Sequence record: OM386656.1
Reading direction: 5' to 3' (one strand)
Source of the DNA: Escherichia phage vB_EcoM_ESCO25
Length of the DNA stretch: 64,000 nt
Shown: positions 16,779 to 37,158 of the stretch, one piece after another
How positions within the stretch are numbered: position 1 is the first letter of the stretch
Layout: every line of letters starts with the position of its first letter
Translations under genes and position numbers: made by a program
Notes under the pieces: model-generated
What the model saw: only the letters and a program-made list of their open reading frames with translations
Told to the model about the DNA's origin: nothing
Databases searched by the model: none

Positions 16779-17252
16779 TTAAAGTTTATAAATAGTCACA
16801 TCGTGACCTGTTTTTACTAAAGTTTCTTCAATCATCACTTGGATGATAGCCCAATTACCTCCGGCATGTCCCGCTCCAATCATAGGTAAACCGATCTTAC
16901 ATTTTTGGTCACGGAGAAGCAAATCATTAGCCATAGCTATTAGTGCATCGTAAAGTGCATCATAGTCCAACTGACGACCTTTAGCATTGTATCCGTAACG
17001 GTATTGCCCGTATAGATTATATACCAAAGGGTCTGATTGTTCGTCTGGCACCCCTAAACTAAAAGAACCTAACTTACTTTGATCACCAGCCATTGTGTCT
17101 AAATCTGCCGCATATGCATAAGGGAATGCTCGTTTAATTTGCGGAGCAATTCCTGCTCCCATATTACACATACAATTGCAACAATGAGCAATAACAGTTA
17201 CTTCACCTGCTTTAGCGGCATCAATAAGATTACCTGTTTTCATTTTAAGCAT
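16779..17252 (-). CDS. macro domain protein (ADP-ribose binding or hydrolysing)
   Basis: Start set at MLKMK with AAGGAG RBS; VIAHCCNCMCNMGAGIAPQIKRAFP and GLPMIGAGHAGG resemble the macro-domain Gly-rich loops. Confidence 0.65.
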   Translation of the reverse strand: MLKMKTGNLIDAAKAGEVTVIAHCCNCMCNMGAGIAPQIKRAFPYAYAADLDTMAGDQSKLGSFSLGVPDEQSDPLVYNLYGQYRYGYNAKGRQLDYDALYDALIAMANDLLLRDQKCKIGLPMIGAGHAGGNWAIIQVMIEETLVKTGHDVTIYKL

Positions 17253-17265
17253 TTTTAGCTCCTTA

Positions 17266-18093
17266 TTACAGAATGTGTTGTTTTGTGTAACGATCCAAGA
17301 ATTCAAAGTTTTCAGCATACTTTGAAATTCGGTTGTAACCTTCTCCCAAACATCCGAAGAAAAGTTGCTCTACATAGTAGTGTGGCAATTGGCTAAGAAT
17401 GATTTTGAAGTCTTCGTGATTTTGGCCCATAAGATACTTAATAGGACGAACAAGACACTGTGCATCACGTTCTTCATTAATCATTTTAACAAACGCTTCT
17501 GGTGTATTGATGTAGTTAAAATTCAGTTTAGCTTCAGTATCTGCTTGATTACCTTCATATTTTGCAAAATACAAGAAGTAAACATCATTTTTAACTTGAT
17601 TTTCATCAAGAATCTCAATCAGTTTGTCTTCATGAGTTCCGGTGATATTTACATCATCAATGAACACAAGCTTCTTATCACCCCAGAATTCTTTGTTGCA
17701 GTAGAATGTATCCCCATCAATAAGTTTCTTACGACTAGCTTTATCCAAGAAACCATAATCGTTGATATAGCTAACTTTACGATGAATAATATCCAGTTCT
17801 GCTGAACGACCTTGATCATATTGTGCTTGCAACATATTAAAGTAATTAATAAAATGATCTGTCATCATTGTTGCAGCATTGTGCACATGGTTATAAGGAG
17901 AAGGGATGATAACAAATTGTTCCCCAATATGTTTCATTGCCACTTGAGCAAAAAACTGAAGTACCAATTCTTTACCCATACGACGCGCAGCTTGGTTACT
18001 ACCAAATTTCAATTTTGAATAGTCTTTGATATCAAAAGTAGCAGTTTCCAGGTCATCAAATTTATTTGCAAAAATTTGAGTTTGATTACGCAT
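17266..18093 (-). CDS. phosphoribosyltransferase-like protein (type I PRTase motif)
   Basis: 275 aa; KKLVFIDDVNITGTHEDKL resembles the PRPP-binding motif (hydrophobic-DD-x-ITTG-T). Confidence 0.45.
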   Translation of the reverse strand: MRNQTQIFANKFDDLETATFDIKDYSKLKFGSNQAARRMGKELVLQFFAQVAMKHIGEQFVIIPSPYNHVHNAATMMTDHFINYFNMLQAQYDQGRSAELDIIHRKVSYINDYGFLDKASRKKLIDGDTFYCNKEFWGDKKLVFIDDVNITGTHEDKLIEILDENQVKNDVYFLYFAKYEGNQADTEAKLNFNYINTPEAFVKMINEERDAQCLVRPIKYLMGQNHEDFKIILSQLPHYYVEQLFFGCLGEGYNRISKYAENFEFLDRYTKQHIL

Positions 18094-18742
18094 TTACAAT
18101 TTCTCCTCTTTTAAGTTTCTCTAGTAAGTCGTTAGGGTTCTTAATATGACAGAAGTTAATCCCTATGTCAACACATTTACCATCAAATTCTTCGCTGTCC
18201 CCAACATGTAAAATCTCTTCAGCCTTCAAAGGAATGCTTGAATATGTGGCGGTCCTAACAAAGAATCTAGGATCTGGTTTACATAACAGATGTTCGTCTG
18301 AAAAATGCATAAATTCAAAACAATTCCAACTGTCGAACATACAAGCACGACGCAAAATATCCCCAGATATAAAATTAGTATTGCTTTTAATACTAAGATC
18401 ATATTTACCAGACAAGTATAGCAAACAAACTGGCAAATCTAAAGCGATATGTGGAGGAAATTTAAGAAACCATTGCTCACACTCAAAACGCATTTGTGCA
18501 GATTCTACAGGGGTTAAACCTATCTTTCTTCCCAACATATTCCATGCATATGCTACACCTTCTGCACACCCATTTAGTGCAGCATTATCCATAATTTCTT
18601 TGGCATCTTTATATGCTTCTTTTGCCGCACGTTCAGACATTCTACCATATGTAGCAATAGTGTGCGTACGTGCATCTGCATAGTTTTGATTGGCAGAAAT
18701 AAGAGTATTCCATACATCAAAAGAAATATGTTTTATTGTCAT
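18086..18742 (-). CDS. HAD-superfamily hydrolase-like protein
   Basis: Start set at MTIKHISFDVWNTL; HAD motif I-like FDVWNTL (second Asp absent, as in dehalogenase-like members), motif III KPDP, motif IV HVGDSEEFD. Confidence 0.5.
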   Translation of the reverse strand: MTIKHISFDVWNTLISANQNYADARTHTIATYGRMSERAAKEAYKDAKEIMDNAALNGCAEGVAYAWNMLGRKIGLTPVESAQMRFECEQWFLKFPPHIALDLPVCLLYLSGKYDLSIKSNTNFISGDILRRACMFDSWNCFEFMHFSDEHLLCKPDPRFFVRTATYSSIPLKAEEILHVGDSEEFDGKCVDIGINFCHIKNPNDLLEKLKRGEIVNA

Positions 18743-18743
18743 A

Positions 18744-19349
18744 CTAGGCCCACCACGCATCAAGATTTAAGTTACTGTCTACCACAACTTGTTCTATGTG
18801 GTAGCCTTTTATCTGTATCCCACTGTTCAAGAGCATATCATATGCTTCATTGAAACGCAACTTATCTTCTGCGGAATATAAGCGAGCATTGTAAAATCGG
18901 TAATCAAGTTCTTCAGCATTAGAAGAAATACGGAAGAAGTTTGTTTCTACTTCAGGATCACTTGCTGAAGTTTTAATGTGAACTTCTCCGTAATTTTCTT
19001 TGCTTAGATCCATGAAAAGAACACAGGCAACATGTTTAAACATTCGTTCCAGTTTGTAACGAACAACATTGAAACCTGCGTTCTCAAGTTTTTCTACACA
19101 TTGCAACATTAACGTAGTGTCGAGATCGCTTTGATACTTTGTTAACATACGATCACGTTGAGACTTTGTATCCCGATGTAAATCAATTGTTGTGCATTTG
19201 GCACCAATGATCTTAGCTGCTTTCATCAACTCTTCAGAACTAACGTTAGATAAAGTAAGATGAAAATGGGCTTTCCACACTTTTTTAGCAGGGACACCAA
19301 AAGATTTATCCCCACTATTCGGCATGTTGACTACTACACTATGTTGCAT
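18744..19349 (-). CDS. hypothetical protein
   Basis: 201 aa ORF. Confidence 0.5.
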   Translation of the reverse strand: MQHSVVVNMPNSGDKSFGVPAKKVWKAHFHLTLSNVSSEELMKAAKIIGAKCTTIDLHRDTKSQRDRMLTKYQSDLDTTLMLQCVEKLENAGFNVVRYKLERMFKHVACVLFMDLSKENYGEVHIKTSASDPEVETNFFRISSNAEELDYRFYNARLYSAEDKLRFNEAYDMLLNSGIQIKGYHIEQVVVDSNLNLDAWWA

Positions 19350-19364
19350 TACTTATCTCCTCAC

Positions 19365-19556
19365 TTAAAATGGAAGTCTTTGAAGTTCATCTCCTCCGAT
19401 ATCAAGTAATTTAGCAACATCTCGATCAGAAAGCAACTCTTTTCTTTGTAAAATATCCACAAGGGTTGCAAGAATGTCCTTAACGTCCCGATCATTGTTC
19501 TTCAAAAGTTCTCCTGCCGTCCCTACCCTATCTCCTACAGCAAAATATGTAACCAT
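19365..19556 (-). CDS. hypothetical small protein
   Basis: Start trimmed to ATG with GGAGG 5 nt upstream (MVTYFAVGD...). Confidence 0.4.
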   Translation of the reverse strand: MVTYFAVGDRVGTAGELLKNNDRDVKDILATLVDILQRKELLSDRDVAKLLDIGGDELQRLPF

Positions 19557-19569
19557 AAAACCTCCTACG

Positions 19570-20040
19570 CTAATCTGATTGCCAACCACTCGCCGTTTTG
19601 GTCCATAATCTTTGATTATCTGACCCTCTGAAAGGTTTTGTGGTTGGATTGTTTATTTCATACTTTCCGTCTACAATAATGTCAACAAGATTTTTAATAT
19701 ACAAAGGCACTTCCTCAAAAGTATATCCTGTATACACCATTATATCTTTGCTTGACCCATAAACGTCTCTAACCTTTTCTATAAGGTTTTTAACATTGTA
19801 AATATTCTGCGGATCTAATGGTTCTCCTCCTAAAATTGTTAAACCTTTTACAAACGGTCTTGACAAATCTTTTAAAACTTGCTCTACATTTTCGTTAGTG
19901 AACGGTTTCCCATAAGAATAAGACCAGGCTTTCTGGTTAAAACAGCCACGACAACCGTGGCTACAACCACTAACCCAGAGGGAGCACCTAACTCCCTCAC
20001 CATTAATAAGATCTACAGGTTCATATCCTGCAAAATTCAA
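19570..20040 (-). CDS. nrdG: anaerobic ribonucleotide reductase activating protein (radical SAM)
   Basis: 156 aa; CSLWVSGCSHGCRGCFN cysteine cluster; overlaps nrdD by 4 nt. Confidence 0.85.
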   Translation of the reverse strand: MNFAGYEPVDLINGEGVRCSLWVSGCSHGCRGCFNQKAWSYSYGKPFTNENVEQVLKDLSRPFVKGLTILGGEPLDPQNIYNVKNLIEKVRDVYGSSKDIMVYTGYTFEEVPLYIKNLVDIIVDGKYEINNPTTKPFRGSDNQRLWTKTASGWQSD

Positions 20041-21851
20041 AGATGTTTCTCCCTTTGCAAAACTTCCTGCATTTTACCTTTGTTATAAGGCCGTGAATTA
20101 GGGGCAGAAAGATACCCTGATACACGTCTAACTACAGAAATAGTTTCTTCTTCATGGTTGCCACAATTAGGACACTCAAACCCTTTAGCCGTTGCCTTAA
20201 ATTCTCCATGAAAACCACACTTAAAGCATTGATCCACGGGCTGATTAATACCAAAATAGTGAATATGTTCATAAGCGTAGTCTACTAAAGTCTCCAAAGC
20301 TTCTAAGTTATTCTTTAAGTTTGGTGTTTCGACATAACTTATGTTACCACCATTGCTAATCTGTGCAAAACCTGCTTCATAATCCCATTTTTCAAAAGGA
20401 TTTGTTACCAACCATACAGGTTGATGAAAAGAATTAGTAAGATAGTCTCTTTCTACCAGACCTGGATATTTTTCATTTAAAGCTGTTGCAAATTTATAGC
20501 ACAAGGATTCTGCTGGAGTTCCATAAAGACTAAATGCCAACTTAGATCGTTCTTTAAACACAGCACACACATCTTTCATATGTTGCAGAATGTTTTTACC
20601 TAGTTCCTTTTTATCTTTTTCCTCTGGATAAAGGATTTCCAAAGCTTCGGCAAGACCTACATAACCAATACTAATAGAAGCATAACCACCTTCAAACAAA
20701 GCACCAATTTCATCGTTGGCATTTAAACGCGCTAAAGCCCCTTCCATGAAAAGAATAGGGTTTTCAGATGCTTTGGTATGTCTGATACGGTTTACACGTA
20801 GCATGTGAGCATCGTAGGCTATCTCCATATGTTTATTAAGAAGATCGGTGAAAGATTCTCCTTTACTTCTCGCTTCCGCAGCAATCAGAGGCAAGTTGAT
20901 AGAAACTACTCCAAGGTTGAATCGTCCATCATATTTTTCTCCTTGTTCGGTGGCATAGTACGACAAAAAGGAACGACAACCCATACTCGTAACGGTACCA
21001 TCTGCTGATCCCGTAACTTCTTTGTTCAAAGGAACAGAAATAAAATCTGGATAAATACGATCAGCACAACATGCCAAAGCTTGTTGCTTAAGGTCGTAGT
21101 TAGGATCACTAGGTTTCATGTTAACACCTTCTTGTAAAAAGAAAATAACTTTAGGGAATACAGGCGTTACATGATCTTTACCTAGACCGTTACTATGCAC
21201 TTTAAGATAGTTAGCTGTGATCATTCTGCCAAAAACAGAGGTATCCAGACCCATACTGATTGTAATAAAAGGAGATTGTCCATTAACACTCATTAAAGTG
21301 TTAACCTGATACAAAAGAGTTTGCATAGCGTCATATACATCTTGTTCGGTCATTTCTAGGGCTTCTTTCCTTGCATAACAACCGTAGCGACGTTTGGTTA
21401 TCTCCATGTTTTTAAGGAAACTGGCTTCAACATAAGGACTAAGACCTTTATCAATGTGCGCACACGTCTGACCTCCATACTGACTGGAGGCAACAGCTTG
21501 GATGATTTGAGTTAGCACTGTAGTAGCTACTCCAATAGATTTTGGTTTTTCTATCTGTGCAGCACCGATCTTAAAACCATTCTCTAACATATCTTGATAA
21601 TTAACAAGACAACAGTTTGTAAGAGGAGAGAGCAGATAATCCAAGTCGTGAATATGTCCAAAACCTTCTGTATGCCATTCTGACAAGTTTTTTGGCAGTA
21701 TCTGTGTCATTGCCATATGTTTGCTTAAAATCCCCGCCAAGAGATCCCTGTGCGTGTTAACAAGGTGGGAAGGTTTGTTTGCATTCTCTCTAGTGTATGT
21801 TTCTGAAGTGCGATCTAAAAAAGAAAAAACATCTTGGTACAAATCTTTCAT
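20037..21851 (-). CDS. nrdD: anaerobic ribonucleoside-triphosphate reductase (class III)
   Basis: 604 aa; C-terminal zinc ribbon CFKCG...CPNCG and glycyl-radical motif RRVSGYL. Confidence 0.9.
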   Translation of the reverse strand: MKDLYQDVFSFLDRTSETYTRENANKPSHLVNTHRDLLAGILSKHMAMTQILPKNLSEWHTEGFGHIHDLDYLLSPLTNCCLVNYQDMLENGFKIGAAQIEKPKSIGVATTVLTQIIQAVASSQYGGQTCAHIDKGLSPYVEASFLKNMEITKRRYGCYARKEALEMTEQDVYDAMQTLLYQVNTLMSVNGQSPFITISMGLDTSVFGRMITANYLKVHSNGLGKDHVTPVFPKVIFFLQEGVNMKPSDPNYDLKQQALACCADRIYPDFISVPLNKEVTGSADGTVTSMGCRSFLSYYATEQGEKYDGRFNLGVVSINLPLIAAEARSKGESFTDLLNKHMEIAYDAHMLRVNRIRHTKASENPILFMEGALARLNANDEIGALFEGGYASISIGYVGLAEALEILYPEEKDKKELGKNILQHMKDVCAVFKERSKLAFSLYGTPAESLCYKFATALNEKYPGLVERDYLTNSFHQPVWLVTNPFEKWDYEAGFAQISNGGNISYVETPNLKNNLEALETLVDYAYEHIHYFGINQPVDQCFKCGFHGEFKATAKGFECPNCGNHEEETISVVRRVSGYLSAPNSRPYNKGKMQEVLQREKHL

Positions 21852-21921
21852 TATTAATCCTTATTTTGTGAGTAGAACTATTATTCTACCTCTTTCAACC
21901 GAAAAAAGCTTTGAGGGAAAT

Positions 21922-21947
21922 CAAAAAAGGCGCAAAGTGCGCCTTTA
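21922..21947 (-). terminator. intrinsic terminator after gene 21955..23370
   Basis: GGCGCA-aag-TGCGCC hairpin; on the minus strand followed by TTTTTTGATTT. Confidence 0.6.
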
Positions 21948-21954
21948 AGTTTTA

Positions 21955-23370
21955 TCATTTGGAGAGGAATTGTCTTCCCATGATCTTACCGTTCTTCACA
22001 GCGGTCCCATCGTGTCCATTGTAATCCCAGGTTCCATCGATATTACGCAAGAAGCTATCACGAACAGTATAGGCTTTACCGTTCTCTACTTTACTTTCTT
22101 CCACAATGATTGCCATAACAAGCTTATTTTCAATTTCGGTAGTAACCGATTCTTTGATACCCTCTGTAACTTCACGATCATATTGGATATAAACTCGCTC
22201 CTCGGTTACTTGCACGTCTACCACATTTTTAAATGTGTAGGTCTGTTGCGTAGTGTAGAGGACACGAACGACACTCTTCTTACCTACCGGAGGCTTCTTA
22301 CGAGGCTTACGGTAACGTGGTTTAGGGTTGTTAGTTGGAAGCCAACCAACAATATCCCGATCATATCCAACATGACCCCAAGTGAAATGCGTAGCCGATC
22401 CACTATCCGTAGTTCCGTCACGAAAGAGAACTTCTACGTGACCACCACAAGGGCGGTGTCCACCATTATTATAGTTGTATTTTGCCGTGCGCGGGAGAAT
22501 GAAGTATTCTTTAATCGCCCACTCTTCCAGATTGTCGATATTCCAAGTGAATACTGTTCCCTTAGCAACATCTGTTTGACCATTGTTGAAGCGAACCTGC
22601 ACGAAATCTTCCGAAGGCATAACACCTGTGTTCGGCAGATATTCAAATGCAGTATCTTCCGCTACAAACTGTTCTTCCTCTTGCTCCTCAATACTTGGCA
22701 CAGGCGCAGCTTCATCGTATTTCGCAGCAAACATATTTTTAAATTCTTGAGCCGTGACTTCTACAAGGCCGCGATCACCAGTAGCAGCAGAGTGTGGGCG
22801 TGGTAAATCCCCAACTTCAATATGCATTGCATCTAAGCCTGCTTGACGATCAAAGAAGATAACCTTGCGGAATTGTTTATCTTTATATTGTGGCAGTTCA
22901 TACATACTTGGATCGATTGTCTTCAAACGTTCAGCATCTTCTGGCTTCCAGAAGCTTTTACCTGTTGCAAATCTAAAGTCTACCAGTAGTTTAACAACAT
23001 CTCCTAATGATAAACTATCTGCATCTACGAAAACGTCTTCGATTCCCAATAACCCTGATTTCTTAAGAATCAAATCTAACATGTAACCTCCTGTGGTTTG
23101 TTCTGCGTCTGGATAACGATCAACACTGGTGCTGGTTACACCGTTTATTTCACCAGTGGAGGCATTGTAGGAAATATATGGGAAGGTCATATCGTTCATT
23201 GCAAAATCACCTGAACAGGTTGGATCATCTTCTCCCTCCCAGCCATACACCTTCACAATACCTTCACACAATTTGTCATACACACCAGCGCGACGTGCTG
23301 CTTCAGCAACTTCCTGTTTACGGGCAAATTTATTAATCATGATTCCTCCTGTTAATTGCCATAGATGCAC
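21955..23370 (-). CDS. hypothetical protein (471 aa)
   Basis: Long ORF, co-oriented; no motif recognised. Confidence 0.55.
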   Translation of the reverse strand: MHLWQLTGGIMINKFARKQEVAEAARRAGVYDKLCEGIVKVYGWEGEDDPTCSGDFAMNDMTFPYISYNASTGEINGVTSTSVDRYPDAEQTTGGYMLDLILKKSGLLGIEDVFVDADSLSLGDVVKLLVDFRFATGKSFWKPEDAERLKTIDPSMYELPQYKDKQFRKVIFFDRQAGLDAMHIEVGDLPRPHSAATGDRGLVEVTAQEFKNMFAAKYDEAAPVPSIEEQEEEQFVAEDTAFEYLPNTGVMPSEDFVQVRFNNGQTDVAKGTVFTWNIDNLEEWAIKEYFILPRTAKYNYNNGGHRPCGGHVEVLFRDGTTDSGSATHFTWGHVGYDRDIVGWLPTNNPKPRYRKPRKKPPVGKKSVVRVLYTTQQTYTFKNVVDVQVTEERVYIQYDREVTEGIKESVTTEIENKLVMAIIVEESKVENGKAYTVRDSFLRNIDGTWDYNGHDGTAVKNGKIMGRQFLSK

Positions 23371-26984: not shown

Positions 26985-26985
26985 A

Positions 26986-28426: not shown

Positions 28427-28456
28427 TTATAAAGTCTCCTTAGTAAGTGAATCTTT

Positions 28457-28499: not shown

Positions 28500-28508
28500 A
28501 GATTAATC

Positions 28509-30241: not shown

Positions 30242-30388
30242 TTAAACCTCCTCGTAGTAAGGCAAAGCTTTGATCAGCTGTTCTGAAGTGCCATTCTCTG
30301 TCCATGTAACCCCGTTGTCAAGAGAAACATACCCTTTCTTATCGATAAATTTACGGAGACAACCAGTGAACTTGTTTTTGTAGATCAT
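30242..30388 (-). CDS. hypothetical small protein (48 aa), not on ORF track
   Basis: Manual translation MIYKNKFTGCLRKFIDKKGYVSLDNGVTWTENGTSEQLIKALPYYEEV; ATGA overlap with the upstream stop. Confidence 0.4.
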   Translation of the reverse strand: MIYKNKFTGCLRKFIDKKGYVSLDNGVTWTENGTSEQLIKALPYYEEV

Positions 30389-30819: not shown

Positions 30820-30849
30820 TTGTTTTCTCCTCTTGTTTTGTATGAGTTG

Positions 30850-30877
30850 ATCTTAACAGGACTAAAAAGCATGTCAA
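30850..30877 (-). promoter_or_regulatory. sigma70-like promoter (TTGACA-N16-TAAGAT) driving the minus-strand block
   Basis: Minus strand: TTGACA (30877-30872), TAAGAT (30855-30850). Confidence 0.5.
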
Positions 30878-30880
30878 TAC

Positions 30881-30908
30881 TTGATCTGAAATTATTTTCA
30901 GGTATCAT
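30881..30908 (+). promoter_or_regulatory. candidate divergent promoter (TTGATC-N16-TATCAT) for the plus-strand block
   Basis: TTGATC at 30881-86, TATCAT around 30903-08; gene 30934 follows with RBS agagagg. Confidence 0.4.
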
Positions 30909-30933
30909 ATATGAACATTAACAAGAGAGGTAG

Positions 30934-31227
30934 ATGATGAACATTACTTTAGCAACTAAGAATATTTCTGAGACAATTAACGGTTTTGGTGTCATTGTAG
31001 CCTTACACGGTAACAACGAGAAATGGTTGGCTTCTTTTGAAGAGGATCGTCAGCACAACATTATTTTAGATGCTCCTATAAAAGTTATGCATATCGTTGG
31101 TGAAAGCAAAGTGCTCACTTCCTCCCGTTCAAAAGAACAAATTACAAATGAATTAGTAAAACTGCTTGACAATGTTCTTAACATGTTTGATAATGCACCC
31201 ATCGATACAAAACGTGTCTTAATGTGA
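30934..31227 (+). CDS. hypothetical protein
   Basis: 97 aa ORF. Confidence 0.5.
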   Translation: MMNITLATKNISETINGFGVIVALHGNNEKWLASFEEDRQHNIILDAPIKVMHIVGESKVLTSSRSKEQITNELVKLLDNVLNMFDNAPIDTKRVLM

Positions 31228-31239
31228 GAGGAGAACCAA

Positions 31240-31527
31240 ATGTATTATTCACAAAATGAAGTAGCAAACATTAAACTGGCAGTTGGCGATCTTATTGTGT
31301 CACCTAACTACCATTGGGATAACACAGACTTGGTTGAAGTAGTAACTCATGTTGGGTTTGAGGGTGTTGTGCTCTACACCCTGGGTGGAGGTGTTGTTGG
31401 GGAAATGGAACGTTATACAACGACCAAGAAACTGGTAAGTTCTTATCGTATGTTCTTGCATCAAGGCTCAGAAGAGTATGCAACCTTCTTGTTGAAATTG
31501 GACGCAGATCGGGAGAAGGCACGATGA
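31240..31527 (+). CDS. hypothetical protein
   Basis: 95 aa ORF; RBS gagaggag. Confidence 0.5.
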   Translation: MYYSQNEVANIKLAVGDLIVSPNYHWDNTDLVEVVTHVGFEGVVLYTLGGGVVGEMERYTTTKKLVSSYRMFLHQGSEEYATFLLKLDADREKAR

Positions 31528-31880
31528 AAATTGTACACGATGAAATTCAAATAGAAGAAAGTGACCTGATGGATTTGGATGCAGCTTTGGGGAAGGTAAT
31601 CTATGCAGGAATTAAAGCCTTCCGTGAGAAGGCAAACAATAGCACGTTTGTCATGATCCCCACTAAACTGATGCGTGTTTTGTATCCAAATAGAAGTGCG
31701 CCGTATACAGATGAAGAAGAGGAGACAGGTAGAAGAGAGTGGTTAAATATTTTAGAAAAGATGGAGAATGCTTTTATTGATAGTGGTAATCCAGAAATCG
31801 TGTATGCTGAAGATCAAAGGAAGGCACGGTTAGAGGGCCGTCTTTTATTCGCTAGTTATTTTGATAATCTTTGGAGCTAA
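31524..31880 (+). CDS. hypothetical protein
   Basis: 118 aa ORF; ATGA overlap. Confidence 0.5.
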   Translation: MKIVHDEIQIEESDLMDLDAALGKVIYAGIKAFREKANNSTFVMIPTKLMRVLYPNRSAPYTDEEEETGRREWLNILEKMENAFIDSGNPEIVYAEDQRKARLEGRLLFASYFDNLWS

Positions 31881-31882
31881 AT

Positions 31883-32059
31883 ATGTCTGAATTCTTCACA
31901 ATGGCTTTCTTAGGGATCTATCTGATTATTAGTGCTGTTGGCTTAATCATGTCTCTAATAGAGGAAATGGGAATTAAGTGGAATTGTGCATTCGGTATAG
32001 CTCTTATGCTCACTCCGGTTTGGATCTACATCTGCAAAGCAGTTGAACTCATTGGTTAA
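31883..32059 (+). CDS. small membrane protein
   Basis: Start trimmed to MSEFFTMAFLGIYLIISAVGLIM...; two hydrophobic helices. Confidence 0.45.
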   Translation: MSEFFTMAFLGIYLIISAVGLIMSLIEEMGIKWNCAFGIALMLTPVWIYICKAVELIG

Positions 32060-32069
32060 TGGAGGTAAT

Positions 32070-32408
32070 ATGTTTAGTAAAGAAATGAGAGAGGTGATCG
32101 CTACTCTGGTAGTAGATCATGGTGTTGAAGTTGAGCGTCACGTTTGGAAAGATGAGCCTCCTTTCTTTGATTTGGCATCACGGGCTAAAAGTCACATGTA
32201 TCTCCTTGAAGATGATAAGGATTTTATTCTGCGTATGCGTTATGATCGAGAGTTTAGAATTCCTCTTGACACAGATCCTGGTGATGTAGTATTGTGGTTG
32301 GCAGAGCATTTCGCATTTAACGCTCTACATGGAAGAAGTTTTGGTAATGAACGTTGGGATACCATTTGTCGTAAACATAATATTGAACCAGAATACGGGA
32401 GTATGTAA
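32070..32408 (+). CDS. hypothetical protein
   Basis: Start trimmed to MFSKEM with RBS ggaggt. Confidence 0.5.
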   Translation: MFSKEMREVIATLVVDHGVEVERHVWKDEPPFFDLASRAKSHMYLLEDDKDFILRMRYDREFRIPLDTDPGDVVLWLAEHFAFNALHGRSFGNERWDTICRKHNIEPEYGSM

Positions 32409-32659
32409 TGTTAAGTATCAAACCTAAAATGATTACTGAAGATCAAAAAGATTACATTTATAAATGTGGTCGGGTGTGGAAAGAATACACTAAAGGTAAT
32501 GAAGTTATTGTAGTTACGGAACATGCTATTTCTTTATCAGATCTTTTTGGTGATTATTTGCAAGTCATTAAAATTGGTATTGACAGAGGTTTGGTGCAGG
32601 TGTTAACATTATCCCAAGTTGAAGCAGAACACTTAGACAAAATCATTGTCGAGTTCTAA
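32408..32659 (+). CDS. hypothetical protein
   Basis: 83 aa ORF. Confidence 0.5.
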   Translation: MLSIKPKMITEDQKDYIYKCGRVWKEYTKGNEVIVVTEHAISLSDLFGDYLQVIKIGIDRGLVQVLTLSQVEAEHLDKIIVEF

Positions 32660-32672
32660 GAGGAGAAAGAAT

Positions 32673-32837
32673 ATGATCTCTTTAGAATCAATAGCTTTTA
32701 AGAAGGGGTATACCGCAGGGTTCAAGTTTGGTATGTTTAATAAAGTAAATCCATATTGTCCAATGACACACAAAAAGGAATTCGAAGAATGGGAAGATGG
32801 ATTTTCTAAAGGCTATCAGGCAAAAGGTTGGTTGTAA
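32673..32837 (+). CDS. hypothetical small protein
   Basis: Start trimmed to MISLES with RBS gaggagaa. Confidence 0.45.
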   Translation: MISLESIAFKKGYTAGFKFGMFNKVNPYCPMTHKKEFEEWEDGFSKGYQAKGWL

Positions 32838-32846
32838 GGAGAGAAT

Positions 32847-33011
32847 ATGATTTTAAACTTCATCATCAACTTGTGTTTGACATTGGGGTTACTCTGTGCA
32901 ATAGTATCCCCTTTGGTTGGTGAATATTGTTCTGAACTGGCGATGTTTATAGTTCTTGGTGCGGCTATTGCTAATATGTTTGTCGCTGCGATTTGTATGT
33001 TGTGGGAATAG
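32847..33011 (+). CDS. small hydrophobic membrane peptide (54 aa), not on ORF track
   Basis: Manual translation MILNFIINLCLTLGLLCAIVSPLVGEYCSELAMFIVLGAAIANMFVAAICMLWE; RBS aaggagag. Confidence 0.45.
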   Translation: MILNFIINLCLTLGLLCAIVSPLVGEYCSELAMFIVLGAAIANMFVAAICMLWE

Positions 33012-33022
33012 GAGGGAAGTTT

Positions 33023-33379
33023 ATGAAAAAACTAATCTTAGCCACATTGCTGGCTACCGTAAGCTTCACCACTTACGCTCAAAAATTTGTAGCAGTTAAA
33101 ACAGATATTGGTAAAGATGTTGTGATCACAGGCAACAAGTTTTACTATACACCTGGGAATGGTGTTCTAGAAGAGTGTAAAGATGTTGAGGCATATACGG
33201 GAAAAGAAGATAACACGGAACGTCCTTTTTATTCGATTATAGCTACTTGCAAAAATGAAATAGTAGCTATTAAACAATACAAAGATGCCCCTGGAGGAGA
33301 ATACTTATTAGTCAAGAATATTAAGAGTGAAAAAACTGCAAAGTTTACAGTAATTATTTTAAAAGGAGAAACGTTCTAA
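33023..33379 (+). CDS. secreted or periplasmic protein (signal peptide)
   Basis: MKKLILATLLATVSFTTYAQ signal peptide; RBS ggaggga. Confidence 0.55.
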   Translation: MKKLILATLLATVSFTTYAQKFVAVKTDIGKDVVITGNKFYYTPGNGVLEECKDVEAYTGKEDNTERPFYSIIATCKNEIVAIKQYKDAPGGEYLLVKNIKSEKTAKFTVIILKGETF

Positions 33380-34518
33380 TGAAATACACTATTTTTGGAG
33401 ATGTAGCTGTTGTAAATAAGGAATATGGCGTTGAAGCTAATAAACTTCCTGCTGGAGTTTGGGTTGTCAACTGCGATCCGCACGGTAACTACTCTTTAGT
33501 GCGTGGTGAAAGTTTCTCTCTTCCGAACACTCTTTATGGGGAAACTAAAGATCGCGCCGCACATGTTATTAAAACATTTGCTCGTCGTAGTAAAGAAGGT
33601 AAAAATACTGGGGTGTTACTGACAGGGACAAAAGGCAGTGGTAAGACGATGTTAGCTAAACTAATTAGCATGTCTCTAATGTCCACAGAAGGTTTAGGTA
33701 TTCCAACCATTTTGGTTACACAGCCTTACACAGATGCTGGCTTCTTAGAATTTATGAGTAAAATTACAGATCGGGCTGTTGTTTTATTTGACGAATTTGA
33801 TAAAGTGTACGCTAAGAAAGAAGATCAGGAAGCACTGTTGACCTTGTTGGATGGAACAGGAAGTGGGAATAAACTTTACATCCTCACTAAAAATAGTGGT
33901 TATATCTCGGAATATTTTGTAAACCGTCCTAGTCGTATCTACTACAGTTTCAATTACGATAAACTGTCTAGTGAAACTATGTTAGATTACTTGGATAAGA
34001 ACTTGGTAAATAAAAAGCACGTAGATAACTTCCAACGTTTATGGGATGTTAGCACAGAGTTGTCTTTCGATGTTATTCAAGGCATTGTAGAAGAATTGAA
34101 TTTCTATCCAAAAATGACTTTTAAAGAATGTCTTGAAATGATGGGTATTTCTTTAGGGAACGATGCTAAATGGAATGTGGCTTCTATCGTAGCTAATGGC
34201 AAAACCTTGAAGGTGAATTGGATCAATAACTGGCACGACTTCACCCCTACTAAGTTTTTGTCGGGTGCTTGTTCCCTGAACATCTATCTACAAAGTTTGA
34301 AAGATGATGAAGTGGAAGCAATGGAAACCAACAGTTATGTTATCCTGGATGAAGATGGTGATCCACATATTGATCTATGTGCAACGGCTGATGGTCTAAC
34401 TTGTGATCTGATTGAAGGTGGTAAGATTCTGGTTATGAGCACTACACCAGGAAACACTTTGCGAGTGGTGCTGGAGCCTGTAACACAACGTTCCACTACA
34501 CTTGGTAGCGTGTTCTAA
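33379..34518 (+). CDS. AAA+ ATPase
   Basis: 379 aa; Walker A LLTGTKGSGKTMLAK, Walker B VVLFDEFDK. Confidence 0.7.
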   Translation: MKYTIFGDVAVVNKEYGVEANKLPAGVWVVNCDPHGNYSLVRGESFSLPNTLYGETKDRAAHVIKTFARRSKEGKNTGVLLTGTKGSGKTMLAKLISMSLMSTEGLGIPTILVTQPYTDAGFLEFMSKITDRAVVLFDEFDKVYAKKEDQEALLTLLDGTGSGNKLYILTKNSGYISEYFVNRPSRIYYSFNYDKLSSETMLDYLDKNLVNKKHVDNFQRLWDVSTELSFDVIQGIVEELNFYPKMTFKECLEMMGISLGNDAKWNVASIVANGKTLKVNWINNWHDFTPTKFLSGACSLNIYLQSLKDDEVEAMETNSYVILDEDGDPHIDLCATADGLTCDLIEGGKILVMSTTPGNTLRVVLEPVTQRSTTLGSVF

Positions 34519-34523
34519 TAAAG

Positions 34524-34546
34524 ATGCCCCGCAAGGGGCATTTGTT
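34524..34546 (+). terminator. intrinsic terminator after the AAA ATPase gene
   Basis: ATGCCCC-gcaa-GGGGCAT hairpin followed by TTGTTAT. Confidence 0.55.
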
Positions 34547-34606
34547 ATGGAGGGATTTTAGTTATTCTTTTGTTGTAGGCTCGCACTAATAGCTAAAGGG
34601 GGAGGT

Positions 34607-36067
34607 GTGCCAAAAATAGTCACTTGGGAACAATATAAAACAGATATAAAACAAGCTTATCAAGGTAAGTCTTGGACTGTTGTAGATTATATTGAGCCGT
34701 GGAACGGCAATAAAACTAAACTTAGATGCATCTGTGCTCTGCATGGAGAATGGAAAACAACAAGCATAAATACCGCTAAACTAGGGAGGGGTTGTCCAGA
34801 ATGCGGTAGGGAGATTATAAGTAAAGCAGTATCTATAAACAAATCAAAAACCTGGGAGCAATATAAAGAAGAAGTGCAAACCACTTACAATCAGGCAGGT
34901 AAGTTTTGGACTGTTACAGGATGGCACGGAGAATGGAAAGGATGGAATACTAAACTGGTTTGTTGTTGTGCTTTACATGGGGAGTGGAGGTCTACTTCTA
35001 TATCTTCTGCGAAAAACGGGAGTGGATGCAGGAAGTGTATGGGAGAAGCAAACAGAGAAAGAACATCGATTGCATGGGAGAAACATAAAGAAGAAGTAGA
35101 AGAAGCTTATAAAGAAAAACCCTGGATTGTTAGAGGCTATGTGGAACCGTGGAACGGTTCCCGCACTAAGTTGATTTGTGAGTGTAAGGTTCATGGTCAA
35201 TGGTGCACTACCACTGTAAACAGTGCTAAACAAGGGACTGGATGCTACAGTTGTCAAAGAGAAATGACGAAACAAAGGAATACAATGGAGGATAAACAAC
35301 ATGTTGAAGATTTTATAAAAGCTTGTCCTGATAATGTAGAGCGTAAATATTATCGTAGCGATAGAGTAGATAGATTAGGTCGTCAGGTTTACTGGATTGT
35401 AGAATGTCCTATATGTGCAGAGGATGATTATTGTAAAGAAGGCTTATGCGATAATAAATTTGAGATGAAGATGAGTCATTTGAAAAGGGGTGGCCTTCCT
35501 TGCCGTTGTTCTAAATATTATCATTACACTCCTGAACAATGGGCCTACCGTATGACCAAAGCTTGCCAGGAACGAGGGGATCAATTTATAGGATTCATTG
35601 ATAAGGTAAGCAATAACAGCAAGTTTAAATATCTATGTAGGGAGCATGGAGAGCAAACGATCACACCTACCGATTATCTCAATGGGAAAGGTTGTCCAGG
35701 CTGTAAGAACAGAAATATGCAAGAATTTTACATCAATATTATTCTTGATGAGTACGGAGAAGACACGGGAGCTTACAAGTTGGGGATTGCAAAGGACAGT
35801 GATATCAGGATCAAAGGGCAGAATGCAAACAACAATTACTCTATGCGCCGTATAGCATTGTTCGATCTGCCGTCCTACCAAGCTTGCAGGGCGTTAGAGA
35901 GTAAGCTAAAGTCTAAGACTGATCAGATTCTACCGTCTATTGGCTGTGTAGAACGCTTGCACATGAAAGATGGTCATAGTGAAACCTTCCTGCGCGAGGA
36001 TTTGGCTATCGTCTTAAGTGCTATCAACCAAGCAGGTGGAATAATGAGAGAGGAGGAAACATGTTAG
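34607..36067 (+). CDS. Cys-rich tandem-repeat protein with C-terminal GIY-YIG/T5orf172-like region
   Basis: 486 aa; three ~70-aa repeats (W-E-Q-Y-K ... TKL-C-C-ALHGEW ... AK-G-GC-x-C) plus a fourth degenerate Cys module; C-terminal EFYINIIL...AYKLGIAKD...RRIALFDL resembles a GIY-YIG-like motif. GTG start. Confidence 0.5.
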   Translation: MPKIVTWEQYKTDIKQAYQGKSWTVVDYIEPWNGNKTKLRCICALHGEWKTTSINTAKLGRGCPECGREIISKAVSINKSKTWEQYKEEVQTTYNQAGKFWTVTGWHGEWKGWNTKLVCCCALHGEWRSTSISSAKNGSGCRKCMGEANRERTSIAWEKHKEEVEEAYKEKPWIVRGYVEPWNGSRTKLICECKVHGQWCTTTVNSAKQGTGCYSCQREMTKQRNTMEDKQHVEDFIKACPDNVERKYYRSDRVDRLGRQVYWIVECPICAEDDYCKEGLCDNKFEMKMSHLKRGGLPCRCSKYYHYTPEQWAYRMTKACQERGDQFIGFIDKVSNNSKFKYLCREHGEQTITPTDYLNGKGCPGCKNRNMQEFYINIILDEYGEDTGAYKLGIAKDSDIRIKGQNANNNYSMRRIALFDLPSYQACRALESKLKSKTDQILPSIGCVERLHMKDGHSETFLREDLAIVLSAINQAGGIMREEETC

Positions 36068-36426
36068 TTGACGTTCAAATTATGCGCAACGAAAGAATGG
36101 ACTTCTTTGAAGCAGTAGAGAAACATCTGATCAGATGGGACTATGAATTTGTTCCTGCTGGATGTGGACCAGTAGAGCATTTAGCGGAAGACGACGATGT
36201 ATACATGATCATTCGTCAAGTGTACCAGACAGACCAGTGTGAAGAAACTCCCGAACTGATTTTGTTTGAGTGTAAAGATCTTGCAAAATATTTTGACTAT
36301 GGCGGAAAAGAGGGTCATAATCTCTCCAGATACAATAAACGTCTACTTATCTTAGACTACATGCGGAACAACAAACACAAACTCATCGACGCAGACGCAG
36401 TTTATGGCTACTGGTGGATGGACTAA
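36061..36426 (+). CDS. hypothetical protein
   Basis: 121 aa ORF. Confidence 0.5.
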   Translation: MLVDVQIMRNERMDFFEAVEKHLIRWDYEFVPAGCGPVEHLAEDDDVYMIIRQVYQTDQCEETPELILFECKDLAKYFDYGGKEGHNLSRYNKRLLILDYMRNNKHKLIDADAVYGYWWMD

Positions 36427-36439
36427 CAAAGGAGAAACT

Positions 36440-36619
36440 ATGGCACGTTTAGCAGATCATGAAATCTTTAAACCTATTCTGAACCACTATGATGAACTTA
36501 AAGCAGTGTTGGATTGTTATAGAGAGGATGAAGAACGTTTGGAAGTCAATCTTAAGATAGTTCTGATGAAAGCTTTTCAAGACGGGCAAGCTAAAGTTTT
36601 AGAAGGCATGAAAAAATGA
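36440..36619 (+). CDS. hypothetical small protein
   Basis: Start trimmed to MARLADH with RBS aaaggagaa. Confidence 0.45.
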   Translation: MARLADHEIFKPILNHYDELKAVLDCYREDEERLEVNLKIVLMKAFQDGQAKVLEGMKK

Positions 36620-37158
36620 GAATAACTGATGAATATGTATTCTTCTTTTCACATAAAGATGTGTTTAGTAATTGGTATATTGCACCCTTTACAGAAACTG
36701 AACCAGGTTACAATGAGACTTTCTGTTGTGTTGAGCAATATATGATGTGGCGTAAGGCTTTGCTGTTCAAGGATCATGCGATTGCAGCAGCTATCCTTGA
36801 TCACTCAACTATACGTGACAACGAGAGGAAACAAGCATACTACAAACGTATGGGTCGAGCGGTATCTGGTTTTAATAATGATATGTGGGAAGAGAACCGT
36901 GAGCGTATTGTTATGCGAGGCTTATGCTTGAAATATGTACAGAATCCAGATTTGTATGCAGACTTACACCTTTACCAATACAAAACGTTTGTTGAAGCAA
37001 GTCCTTACGATAAGGTTTACGGTATTGGAATGGGAATGTATGAACCAGGGGTGCTAAACCCTGCTACCTGGAAAGGGCAGAATCTTTTAGGAAAATATCA
37101 TAATAAACTGATCGAAATACTTTTCCCAGACAAAATACCGCAAAGACGATATTTGTGA
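36616..37158 (+). CDS. NADAR (YbiA-like) domain protein
   Basis: 180 aa; FFFSHKDVFSNWY, CVEQYMMWRKALLF, RERIVMRGLCLKYVQNPDL and VEASPYDKVYGIGMG match the NADAR/DUF1768 signature. Confidence 0.7.
   Translation: MRITDEYVFFFSHKDVFSNWYIAPFTETEPGYNETFCCVEQYMMWRKALLFKDHAIAAAILDHSTIRDNERKQAYYKRMGRAVSGFNNDMWEENRERIVMRGLCLKYVQNPDLYADLHLYQYKTFVEASPYDKVYGIGMGMYEPGVLNPATWKGQNLLGKYHNKLIEILFPDKIPQRRYL

What the first reader, a model, noticed from the sequence alone, without database searches (positions are those of the whole stretch)
16779..37158. Macro domain (16779-17252) and NADAR domain (36616-37158): candidate anti-ADP-ribosylation counter-defence
Both domain families act on ADP-ribose conjugates. 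NADAR-family proteins have been reported to reverse guanine ADP-ribosylation of DNA by DarT-type toxins, and macro domains remove ADP-ribose from protein or DNA. Their presence in one phage suggests countermeasures against host ADP-ribosylating defence systems, or, for the macro domain, a role in the Ter-linked metabolite pathway.
Basis: partly seen in the sequence, partly recalled or inferred. Interest (0 to 1): 0.6.

Follow-up and report, generated by a model that had tools for sequence, protein, structure and literature searches.

The report
Phage NADAR and macro ADP-ribose hydrolases
This E. coli phage carries two separate genes for enzymes that strip ADP-ribose off molecules: one matches a protein already shown to defeat the bacterial DarTG1 defence, and the other is an untested but very widespread phage enzyme that probably does a similar job on a different ADP-ribose linkage.

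Summary
The window is a phAPEC8-like E. coli myovirus (Phapecoctavirus). Both domain calls hold at the stated coordinates.

The NADAR gene (36616-37158, +) scores 122 bits on Pfam, and its model matches PnNADAR with ADP-ribose bound. All catalytic and ADPr-contacting residues are kept. It is the syntenic, 57 %-identical orthologue of AdfN^Bas60, a phi92-like phage protein shown experimentally to neutralise DarT1 and counter DarTG1. This part is already-known biology.

The macro gene (16779-17252, -) barely passes Pfam, but profile and fold searches place it firmly in the TARG1/ALC1-like class. It belongs to the SCO6735/BT1257 subtype, with Gln83 in place of the catalytic Lys and a long mobile loop. 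SCO6735 removes thymidine-linked ADP-ribose, the DarT2 product.

HAD-PRTase_3 is the conserved module (36/37 loci), and macro accompanies it only in this phage lineage. In other phages this macro family sits directly beside a NADAR gene, in both gene orders.

The macro substrate is untested; anti-DarT2 activity is my best guess. The two genes are unlinked here. Ordinary to moderately interesting.

The parts
36616..37158 (+). NADAR-family ADP-ribosyl N-glycohydrolase gene (180 aa), orthologue of AdfN^Bas60
   Evidence: Pfam PF08719 at 122 bits. 57 % identity and conserved synteny with Bas60 bas60_0111. AF2 pLDDT 95, Foldseek 8BAU TM 0.79. Invariant E40, K47, W91, E127, D132.
36404..36619 (+). 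Small upstream ORF (phrog_22330, no known function) whose stop overlaps the NADAR ATG (ATGA). NADAR is probably translationally coupled to it. Context only.
   Evidence: This ORF and 36061-36426 are absent from the Justusliebigvirus arrangement, where the endonuclease gene abuts NADAR.
16779..17252 (-). Macro-domain gene (157 aa), TARG1/ALC1-like class, SCO6735/BT1257 (Gln-type) subclass, phrog_335
   Evidence: Family-invariant H23, N26, Q83, G126. Q83 aligns with TARG1 K84 and SCO6735 Q85.
17258..17263 (-). Shine-Dalgarno (AAGGAG) for the macro gene, between the PRTase stop and the ATG at 17252
   Evidence: Read directly from the sequence. An RBS is annotated at the same place in ESCO13.
17266..18742 (-). 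Context, not part of the ADPr function: the HAD-like hydrolase (18086-18742) and ComF-like PRTase_3 (17266-18093) pair immediately upstream of macro
   Evidence: Pfam PRTase_3 at 142 bits. HAD lies directly upstream of PRTase_3 in 36 of 37 loci, but macro is adjacent only in this phage lineage.
15467..16766 (-). Context: small TM protein (16545-16766), TerC (15491-16465) and a terminator-like hairpin (15467-15484) that probably ends the transcript containing macro

Best explanation
These are two independent, stand-alone ADP-ribose-removing enzymes of a phAPEC8-like E. coli phage.

(1) The NADAR protein is an AdfN-type counter-defence enzyme. It is expressed from the early + strand block. It hydrolyses the N-glycosidic bond between ADP-ribose and guanine that the DarT1 toxin of DarTG1 places on phage ssDNA, which restores replication. 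The family, fold, residues and orthology are shown here. The activity is inferred from the tested orthologue.

(2) The macro protein is a SCO6735/BT1257-type member of the TARG1/ALC1-like class. It binds ADP-ribose in the canonical cleft (G32-x-G34 and G126-x-G128 loops). It uses Gln83, with His23 and Asn26, to position the substrate for water-mediated cleavage at C1''. Its most likely substrate is thymidine-linked ADP-ribose on ssDNA, the DarT2 product, so that macro and NADAR together would cover T- and G-linked DNA ADP-ribosylation. Glu/Asp-linked protein ADP-ribose is a secondary possibility. The fold, subclass and conserved constellation are shown here. The substrate and the role are inferred.

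Macro's position next to the HAD-PRTase_3/Ter genes is a lineage-specific juxtaposition, not a pathway link.
For: NADAR:
- Pfam 122 bits; fold match to PnNADAR with ADPr.
- Residue map from the 8BAU alignment, using the numbering in PMC11543638: E40=E43, K47=K50, K77=K75, R81=R79, W91=W89, R93=R93, E127=E125, D132=D130. E40, K47, W91, E127 and D132 are invariant in 51 homologues.
- 57 % identical to Bas60 bas60_0111 and in the same ATPase-endonuclease-NADAR position.
- AdfN^Bas60 restored RB69, T5 and Bas25 replication on DarTG1 hosts and neutralised DarT1, with no effect on DarTG2.

Macro:
- Profile hits: BT1257 2e-21, SCO6735 2e-19, TARG1 2e-18, DarG 1e-11. Foldseek: TARG1, BT1257 and DarG at TM 0.77-0.82.
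- H23, N26, Q83 and G126 are invariant in 51 homologues. They equal SCO6735 H24, N27, Q85 and G126; Q85A/E abolishes SCO6735 activity.
- It has the long mobile loop typical of the SCO6735/BT1257 subclass.
- SCO6735, DarG and TARG1 all cleave dT-ADPr DNA, and SCO6735 rescues E. coli from DarT.
- The only NCBIfam hit is the macro half of the DarG model.

Linkage:
- Among 80 viral macro loci, 16 have a NADAR directly upstream. With L005, that gives 17 pairs, 11 of them overlapping or abutting.
- Among 80 viral NADAR loci, 14 have this macro within 1.5 kb on the same strand, in both gene orders.
- A phage macrodomain of another subfamily, AdfM, is a proven anti-DarTG2 factor.
Against: - No experiment exists for this macro family in phages. 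I found none for T4 Tk.4 either.
- The SCO6735 DNA-positioning lysines K34 and K89 are Ala33 and Gly87 here. TARG1 also has Ala at the K34 position and still cleaves dT-ADPr, so this counts only weakly.
- The Aravind group argues that phage Macro and NADAR domains mainly target low-molecular-weight ADPr derivatives.
- One relative sits in an NAD-salvage island with NAMPT, Nudix, SIR2 and a PRPP-synthetase-like gene. That fits small-molecule or NAD recycling roles.
- The NADAR also passes the TIGR02464 'riboflavin-intermediate N-glycosidase' model.
- E. coli YbiA and T4 NADAR hydrolyse G-ADPr in vitro yet failed to protect from DarT1 in one in vivo assay. In vitro chemistry therefore does not guarantee counter-defence, and 57 % identity leaves room for a shifted specificity.
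- In this genome the two genes are 19 kb apart, on opposite strands.
Confidence: 0.6

Rival explanations
1. Small-molecule reading. Both enzymes mainly act on low-molecular-weight ADP-ribose derivatives, such as immune signals or toxic metabolites (ADPr-1''-phosphate, O-acetyl-ADPr, cyclic or His-linked ADPr), or they recycle ADPr for NAD+ salvage. On this reading they do not act on ADP-ribosylated DNA.
For: Argued on comparative grounds by Iyer et al. 2022. A 47 %-identical macro lies in an island with NUDIX, NAMPT, NADAR, HAD, SIR2 and a PRPP-synthetase-like gene. The fold also matches Poa1p, an ADPr-1''-phosphate phosphatase, at TM about 0.8. The phrog_335 annotation is 'phosphatase'.
Against: For NADAR, the tested orthologue acts on DarT1-modified DNA in vivo. 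For macro, the closest characterised relative SCO6735 prefers dT-ADPr DNA and is inactive on phosphate-end and 2'-OH ADPr. No small-molecule activity has been shown for this subclass.
Confidence: 0.22
2. Ter-pathway reading. The macro protein works with the adjacent HAD phosphatase and ComF-like PRTase to make or edit the predicted Ter-linked nucleoside-like metabolite.
For: Macro lies 13 nt downstream of PRTase_3. It shows no intervening terminator-like site and appears co-transcribed with HAD, PRTase_3 and TerC. The arrangement recurs in sister genera (L008, L012/13, L017, L021).
Against: HAD-PRTase_3 is the conserved pair (36 of 37 loci). Macro accompanies it only in this phage lineage: 0 of 20 other bacterial loci and 1 of 11 distant viral loci, that one 7 kb away. 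Pfam finds no macro next to the pair in Sinorhizobium or in a 350-kb phage Ter cluster. Most members of the macro family have no Ter genes nearby: 64 of the 80 viral macro loci show none within 10 kb, and the deposited family includes T4 Tk.4. Relatives keep macro near other Ter genes while no PRTase_3 is detected within 10 kb (L015, L016, L020) or while it lies about 10 kb away (L011, same contig as L123), and extra genes are inserted between PRTase and macro in L008 and other relatives.
Confidence: 0.06
3. Housekeeping N-glycosidase reading for NADAR. Like E. coli YbiA, it clears reactive riboflavin-pathway intermediates or other ribosylated bases during infection.
For: It passes NCBIfam TIGR02464 at 115 bits against a cut-off of 74. 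It has Glu at the YbiA-type E125 position. The profile hits YbiA at 7e-16.
Against: No riboflavin genes are annotated in the window. The 'GTP cyclohydrolase II' labels in GenBank come from fusion-protein homology. YbiA itself hydrolyses G-ADPr in vitro. The orthologue AdfN^Bas60 has a demonstrated anti-DarTG1 phenotype.
Confidence: 0.07

Closest known systems
AdfN^Bas60 (anti-DarT factor NADAR of phi92-like phages Bas60-62; Johannesman, Carlson & LeRoux, Nat Commun 2025)
   Same: Same protein family and subfamily. 57 % identity over 172 aa. Same genomic position (ATPase, CapR-repeat endonuclease, NADAR). Same host species and a sister genus in Stephanstirmvirinae. Catalytic residues identical.
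   Different: 43 % of residues differ. Two small ORFs are inserted upstream in Phapecoctavirus. The activity of this orthologue has not been tested.
P. nicotianae NADAR (PDB 8BAU) and E. coli YbiA (2B3W)
   Same: Same fold (TM 0.79 and 0.69). ADPr-contacting residues and the YbiA-type Glu at position E125 are conserved.
   Different: W133 is Tyr135 here. Cellular, non-phage contexts. YbiA did not protect against DarT1 in vivo.
AdfN^T4 (gp30.3) and DarG1 antitoxin NADARs
   Same: NADAR superfamily members that hydrolyse guanine-ADPr. AdfN^T4 is also an orphan phage counter-defence gene.
   Different: According to Schuller 2023, T4-type phage NADARs have His and DarG1 has Asp at the E125 position. 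This protein has Glu. DarG1 structures are not reached by the family profile. No DarT neighbour is present.
SCO6735 (S. coelicolor) and BT1257 (B. thetaiotaomicron) macrodomains
   Same: Closest solved relatives. Gln replaces the TARG1/DarG catalytic Lys. His, Asn and the Gly loops are conserved. The long mobile loop is present. All are single-domain proteins of about 150 aa.
   Different: Only 26-29 % identity. SCO6735 K34 and K89 are not conserved. Phage rather than chromosomal context.
AdfM (PhiKZ gp104), DarG2 and TARG1
   Same: Same ALC1-like macro class. All cleave thymidine-linked ADPr on DNA. AdfM is a phage-encoded anti-DarTG2 factor.
   Different: These are Lys-type enzymes (K78, K80, K84). 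AdfM is only remotely related (BLASTP E 0.012; hhalign 21 % identity). DarG2 has an extra DarT-binding domain that is absent here.
T4 Tk.4 (phrog_335 'phosphatase')
   Same: Same phage macro family (37 % identity), also Gln-type. T4 likewise carries a separate NADAR (AdfN).
   Different: Tk.4 has the short TARG1-like loop. Its function is also unknown as far as I could find.

Membership tests
NADAR superfamily (Pfam PF08719) | Profile match above the gathering score, and the NADAR/YbiA alpha+beta fold | tested here: met
   122 bits against a cut-off of 35. AF2 pLDDT 95. Foldseek 8BAU E 3e-9, TM 0.79; YbiA TM 0.69.
NADAR superfamily | Catalytic Glu and Lys seven residues apart (PnNADAR E43/K50; C7 NADAR E88/K95; AdfN^T4 E36/K43), plus the ADPr-contacting K75, R79, W89, R93, D130 | tested here: met
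   E40/K47, K77, R81, W91, R93 and D132 from the 8BAU alignment and the paper's numbering. Invariant or nearly invariant in 51 homologues. W133 is Tyr135.
AdfN (phage anti-DarT factor NADAR), Bas60 type | Orthology to the experimentally tested AdfN^Bas60 | tested here: met
   57 % identity, E 9e-68. Same ATPase-endonuclease-NADAR position in the sister genus.
AdfN | Removes guanine-linked ADPr from DNA and restores phage growth on DarTG1 hosts | not testable with these tools
   Needs biochemistry and plaque assays. Shown only for the Bas60 orthologue.
DarG1 antitoxin NADAR | Encoded next to DarT1, with Asp at the E125-equivalent position | tested here: not met
   The neighbours are small hypothetical ORFs and a CapR-repeat endonuclease. 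The position is Glu127. The profile search did not reach DarG1 structures.
YbiA-type riboflavin-intermediate N-glycosidase (TIGR02464) | Profile match above the cut-off | tested here: met
   114.9 bits against 73.7. This is a domain-level match and does not establish the substrate.
YbiA-type riboflavin-intermediate N-glycosidase | Association with riboflavin biosynthesis genes (fusion or neighbourhood) | tested here: not met
   Single-domain 180-aa protein. No rib genes are annotated in the window.
Macro domain (Pfam PF01661) | Profile match above the gathering score, and the macro fold | tested here: met
   22.8 bits against 22, which is marginal. The fold is unambiguous: pLDDT 94, TM 0.77-0.82 to TARG1, BT1257 and DarG.
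ALC1/TARG1-like class, SCO6735/BT1257 subclass | Gln at the TARG1-K84/DarG-K80 position; conserved His24 and Asn27; Gly126/Gly128 loop; mobile loop about 5 residues longer | tested here: met
   Q83, H23, N26, G126 and G128. The long loop is seen in alignment A5. The defining features are taken from PMC9411070.
ALC1/TARG1-like class, SCO6735/BT1257 subclass | DNA-positioning lysines K34 and K89 of SCO6735 | tested here: not met
   Ala33 and Gly87. TARG1 also has Ala at the first position.
ALC1/TARG1-like class | Hydrolysis of thymidine-linked ADPr on ssDNA | not testable with these tools
   Shown for SCO6735, DarG and TARG1. Needs a gel-shift assay with a DarT2-modified oligonucleotide.
DarG2 antitoxin | Catalytic Lys80, a C-terminal DarT-binding domain, and an adjacent darT | tested here: not met
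   Gln83 replaces the Lys. Single 157-aa domain. NCBIfam DarG scores 36 bits against a cut-off of 250 and covers only model positions 2-147 of 338. No DarT neighbour.
AdfM (chimallivirus anti-DarT factor macro) | Close homology to PhiKZ gp104, with N23/K78 | tested here: not met
   BLASTP E 0.012 over 22 aa. hhalign gives 94 % probability at 21 % identity. Lys is replaced by Gln.
Ter-linked HAD-PRTase_3 nucleoside-metabolite module | Conserved co-occurrence with PRTase_3 and HAD across lineages | tested here: not met
   HAD is adjacent to PRTase_3 in 36 of 37 loci. Macro is adjacent only in its own lineage, in 0 of 20 other bacterial loci and 1 of 11 distant viral loci. Only 5 of 80 macro loci have PRTase_3 within 10 kb.

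The most novel reading that the evidence does not exclude
The Gln-type phage macro family (phrog_335, including T4 Tk.4; found in at least 2,900 deposited phage genomes) may be a widespread, so far unrecognised anti-DarTG2 factor. It would act mechanistically like SCO6735 rather than DarG or AdfM. Together with YbiA-like NADARs it would form a two-enzyme 'erase any DarT mark' module: thymine-ADPr by macro and guanine-ADPr by NADAR. The module would be fused into an operon in many phages and split across the genome in phAPEC8-like phages. [quoted passage not shown]
Probability: 0.35. Interest if true: 0.6.

Novelty: new member of a known kind. Interest (0 to 1): 0.32.

Why it matters
The NADAR gene adds a Phapecoctavirus orthologue to a counter-defence class already demonstrated in 2024-25. 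That helps in predicting the host range of therapeutic phAPEC8-like phages on DarTG1-carrying E. coli.

The macro gene is the more useful lead. It belongs to one of the most widespread accessory gene families of large phages, and I found no experimental function for it. Its closest characterised relative erases the DarT2 mark. Its repeated operonic coupling to NADAR makes a specific, cheap experiment worthwhile.

The analysis also removes a tempting but unsupported link between the macro gene and the enigmatic Ter/PRTase cluster.

Tried and rejected
- The Anantharaman/Iyer/Aravind 2012 Ter paper could not be retrieved by DOI or PMC id. The Ter-module definition therefore rests on Iyer 2021 and on my own locus scans.
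It was rerun without that row.
- Model coordinates are not exposed. I could not measure pocket geometry or electrostatics, so residue equivalences rest on HMM and MAFFT alignments to solved structures.
- A literature search for T4 Tk.4 or this phage macro family found no functional study.
- ICP1 AdfB was considered as a macro-type precedent and rejected. It acts by binding DarT and is not described as a macrodomain.
- tRNA and Rfam scans of the window found nothing.
- The promoter scan is not enriched over shuffles. Operon statements therefore rest on gene spacing and the absence of terminator-like sites.
- I did not check the remaining ~86 kb of the phage genome, outside the window, for a phage-encoded ADP-ribosyltransferase.
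- My macro HMM is class-specific and could miss MacroD-type macros near PRTase_3. The Pfam spot-check of two loci found none.


Full report
**Source and layout.** The window is 98-99.9 % identical to phAPEC8-like E. coli myoviruses (Phapecoctavirus, Stephanstirmvirinae). It is collinear with phage ESCO13, offset by one base. The - strand block from about 1 to 30.8 kb holds replication and nucleotide-metabolism genes and a Ter-type cluster. A + strand block of mostly small unknown genes starts at about 30.9 kb.

**Observation check.** Both ORFs are present at the stated coordinates.

- The NADAR call is unambiguous: Pfam PF08719 at 122 bits against a gathering score of 35.
- The Macro call is marginal on Pfam: 22.8 bits against 22. 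Other evidence makes it solid. phmmer against PDB finds SCO6735 (1e-12), BT1257, the T. aquaticus DarG macrodomain and TARG1. A profile of 51 homologues gives 2e-21 to 2e-18 for BT1257, SCO6735 and TARG1. The AlphaFold2 model (pLDDT 94.2, pTM 0.90) superposes on TARG1, BT1257 and DarG at TM 0.77-0.82.
- The macro start at 17252 is supported by TAA, then AAGGAG, then 7 nt, then ATG.
- The NADAR ATG overlaps the stop of the preceding small ORF (ATGA).
- The finding's 20-kb span is not one locus. The genes are on opposite strands, 19 kb apart.

**NADAR: what it is.** I used the alignment to PDB 8BAU (P. nicotianae NADAR with ADP-ribose) and the residue roles in Schuller et al. 2023 (PMC11543638). 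The chain index equals residue number + 2.

| This protein | PnNADAR |
|---|---|
| E40 | E43 |
| K47 | K50 |
| K77 | K75 |
| R81 | R79 |
| W91 | W89 |
| R93 | R93 |
| E127 | E125 |
| D132 | D130 |
| Y135 | W133 |

E40, K47, W91, E127 and D132 are invariant in 51 homologues down to 38 % identity. Glu at the E125 position marks the YbiA-like type. According to Schuller 2023 this position is Asp in DarG1-type proteins and His in T4-type phage NADARs. The model (pLDDT 95.3) matches 8BAU at TM 0.79 and YbiA at 0.69. The profile reaches 8BAU (3e-36) and YbiA (7e-16) but not DarG1 structures.

**NADAR: what is known.** Johannesman, Carlson and LeRoux (bioRxiv 2024; Nat Commun 2025) found a NADAR in Bas60, Bas61 and Bas62, named it AdfN^Bas60, and showed the following:

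- Ectopic expression restores RB69, T5 and Bas25 replication on DarTG1 hosts.
- It neutralises DarT1.
- It does nothing against DarTG2.

Bas60-62 are phi92-like phages, now Justusliebigvirus, the sister genus of Phapecoctavirus. I located the Bas60 gene (bas60_0111 in PaulScherrer, MZ501100). It is 57 % identical to the window protein (E 9e-68). It sits in the same place, directly after the ATPase and the CapR-repeat 'endonuclease'. The window gene is therefore the positional orthologue of a tested anti-DarTG1 factor.

Two caveats apply. E. coli YbiA and T4 gp30.3 hydrolyse G-ADPr in vitro but did not protect from DarT1 in one in vivo assay (Cihlova 2024). The protein also passes the TIGR02464 'riboflavin-intermediate N-glycosidase' model. 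This explains the frequent 'GTP cyclohydrolase II' mislabel in GenBank.

**Macro: subclass and active site.** The TARG1 dyad is absent: K84 is Gln83 and D125 is Ala130. This is exactly the situation in SCO6735 and BT1257. In SCO6735, Gln85 occupies the Lys position and Q85A/E abolishes activity. His24, Asn27 and Gly126/128 line the site (PMC9411070).

- The window protein has H23, N26, Q83, G126 and G128. H23, N26, Q83 and G126 are invariant across 51 homologues.
- It also has the longer 'mobile loop' that the paper gives as the hallmark of the SCO6735/BT1257 subclass. T4 Tk.4 has the short TARG1-like loop.
- SCO6735, DarG and TARG1 all cleave thymidine-linked ADPr on DNA. SCO6735 is the fastest of the three. 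It rescues E. coli from DarT and is inactive on dG-ADPr, phosphate-end ADPr and 2'-OH RNA-ADPr.
- The SCO6735 DNA-positioning lysines K34 and K89 are Ala33 and Gly87 here. TARG1 shares the Ala, so this is only weak counter-evidence.
- The chimallivirus anti-DarTG2 macrodomain AdfM (PhiKZ gp104; PMC13309987) is Lys-type and only remotely related. NCBIfam sees only the macro half of the DarG model, far below the cut-off.

**Macro: Ter-pathway component or not?** The gene lies inside a full Ter-type cluster:

| Gene | Coordinates |
|---|---|
| TerD | 8860-9462 |
| vWA-TerF | 9973-10767 |
| TelA | 12166-13278 |
| SprT-like | 13275-13865 |
| TerC | 15491-16465 |
| PRTase_3 | 17266-18093 |
| HAD | 18086-18742 |

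Macro seems co-transcribed with HAD, PRTase_3 and TerC, because the only terminator-like hairpin is at 15467-15484. I tested the linkage from both sides.

*From the macro side* (80 viral loci, 39-91 % identity):

- Twelve loci (L010-L021) are close relatives of this lineage. Nine of them have Ter genes within 10 kb.
- Two further loci show only a weak vWA-like hit.
- PRTase_3 is present in only five loci.
- In some relatives macro stays near other Ter genes while no PRTase_3 is detected within 10 kb (L015, L016, L020) or while it lies about 10 kb away (L011, same contig as L123).
- In L008 a 184-aa gene is inserted between PRTase and macro.

*From the PRTase side* (21 genome and 16 viral loci):

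- HAD lies directly upstream of PRTase_3 in 36 of 37 loci.
- Macro is adjacent only in the window's own lineage.
- It is absent from all 20 other bacterial loci (rhizobia, Bacteroidales, Pedococcus).
- It is present in 1 of 11 distant viral loci, 7 kb away.
- Pfam spot-checks confirm LysE-HAD-PRTase_3-ClpP in Sinorhizobium and TerC-like-x-HAD-PRTase_3-TerD in a 350-kb phage, with no macro.

The conserved module is HAD-PRTase_3, and macro is a lineage-specific neighbour. The macro family itself occurs in 2,929 deposited phage genomes (T4-like Tk.4, FelixO1-like, PAK_P1-like, Ackermannviridae and others). Typically no Ter genes are nearby.

**Macro: the recurrent partner is NADAR.**

- In 16 of the 80 macro loci, a NADAR of the same subfamily (VEASP[YE]D motif) lies directly upstream. 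Counting L005 as well gives 17 such pairs, and in 11 of them the genes overlap or abut (-10 to +5 nt).
- From the NADAR side, 14 of 80 loci have this macro within 1.5 kb on the same strand. Both gene orders occur.
- Within the macro-side set the linkage persists while macro falls to 59 % and NADAR to 51 % identity. These loci are related to one another, so the counts are not independent events. The two gene orders nevertheless argue for more than one arrangement.
- One relative lies in an NAD-salvage/ADPr island: NUDIX, NAMPT, NADAR, macro, HAD, SIR2 and a PRPP-synthetase-like gene.
- Iyer et al. 2022 had already noted NADAR-Macro neighbourhoods and fusions in DNA viruses. They report that 41 % of myoviruses carry Macro and 27 % carry NADAR. 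Co-presence is therefore common.

**Mechanism.**

*Shown here:* both proteins are intact members of ADPr-hydrolase families with the residues required in their closest characterised relatives. NADAR is the orthologue of a tested anti-DarTG1 enzyme. Macro is not a conserved part of the Ter module, and its family is repeatedly coupled to NADAR.

*Inferred:* NADAR removes guanine-linked ADPr laid down by DarT1. Macro removes an ADPr conjugate that NADAR cannot. Thymidine-linked ADPr from DarT2 is the best candidate, because that is the shared activity of the class and the preferred substrate of the nearest subclass. Johannesman et al. also report that T4 lacking adfA and adfN remains DarTG2-resistant. 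T4 carries the Tk.4 homologue, so this is compatible with the idea but is not evidence for it.

*Rivals:* small-molecule ADPr derivatives or NAD recycling (about 0.2), the Ter pathway (about 0.06), and a riboflavin-type N-glycosidase role for NADAR (about 0.07).

**Novelty and verdict.** The NADAR part is a new member of an already demonstrated kind. The macro part is an uncharacterised but very common phage family, with a clear and testable prediction. The juxtaposition with the Ter genes is incidental. Overall interest is modest.

Noticed in passing
window 8860-19349 (- strand): A near-complete Ter-type cluster in a 150-kb phage: TerD, vWA-TerF-like, TelA, SprT-like metallopeptidase, TerC, a HAD-like hydrolase and a ComF-like PRTase_3, plus several unknown ORFs (11040-11603, 13869-14462, 18744-19349). 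The HAD-PRTase_3 pair, which overlaps by 8 nt here, is conserved in 36 of 37 loci. These include rhizobial replicons, Bacteroidales MAGs and jumbo phages. Its product and role are unknown.
   Followed up: partly
window 37159-37966: An ~800-bp stretch with no convincing ORF lies downstream of NADAR. It contains two 72-nt direct repeats (37377-37448 and 37515-37586, 82 % identical), three 29-nt repeats, a 23-nt inverted repeat (37657-37708) and several TTTACA-N17/18-xAAAAT promoter-like sites. No tRNA or Rfam match. It may be a regulatory or promoter array.
   Followed up: partly
window 34607-36067 (+): A 486-aa protein with five CapR-homology repeats (Pfam PF21817; PHROG 'endonuclease') lies upstream of NADAR (two small ORFs lie between them) and is conserved in that position in Justusliebigvirus. 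Function unknown.
   Followed up: no
L005 (Logan ERR3662987 contig; the same protein is also on a 331-kb NCBI contig): An NAD/ADPr island in a large phage-like contig: AAA, NUDIX, Glu_synthase, NAMPT, NADAR, unknown, macro, HAD_SAK_2, SIR2, a PRPP-synthetase-like gene, PhyH and Thg1. It looks like an NAD-reconstitution plus ADPr-processing module.
   Followed up: no
L090 (JAEZZU010000022.1, 'MAG: Proteobacteria bacterium OH_PFB_59'): A 13-kb contig binned into a bacterial MAG is 98-100 % identical at protein level to this phage's nrdD, nrdG, HAD, PRTase and macro region. It is almost certainly phage DNA mis-binned into the MAG.
   Followed up: no
phage database records MG065650, MG065645, MG065639 and others ('Campylobacter phage B15, A145, A150...'): Records labelled as Campylobacter jejuni phages carry NADAR genes 89-99 % identical to E. 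coli Phapecoctavirus and Justusliebigvirus proteins, with genome sizes of 146-151 kb. The host labels look doubtful.
   Followed up: no
GenBank annotations of the NADAR orthologues: The NADAR gene is variously annotated 'GTP cyclohydrolase II', 'N-glycosidase', 'YbiA-like N-glycosidase' or hypothetical. The macro gene is annotated 'phosphatase' or 'RNase III inhibitor'. These names are carried over from fusion proteins or distant homologues and are likely misleading.
   Followed up: partly
window 4389-7533 (- strand; ESCO13 gp230-233): Four consecutive glycosyltransferase genes lie next to the primase/helicase. The BASEL paper mentions a putative dTDP-glycosylation machinery in these phages, which are nonetheless highly sensitive to restriction-modification systems.
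   Followed up: no
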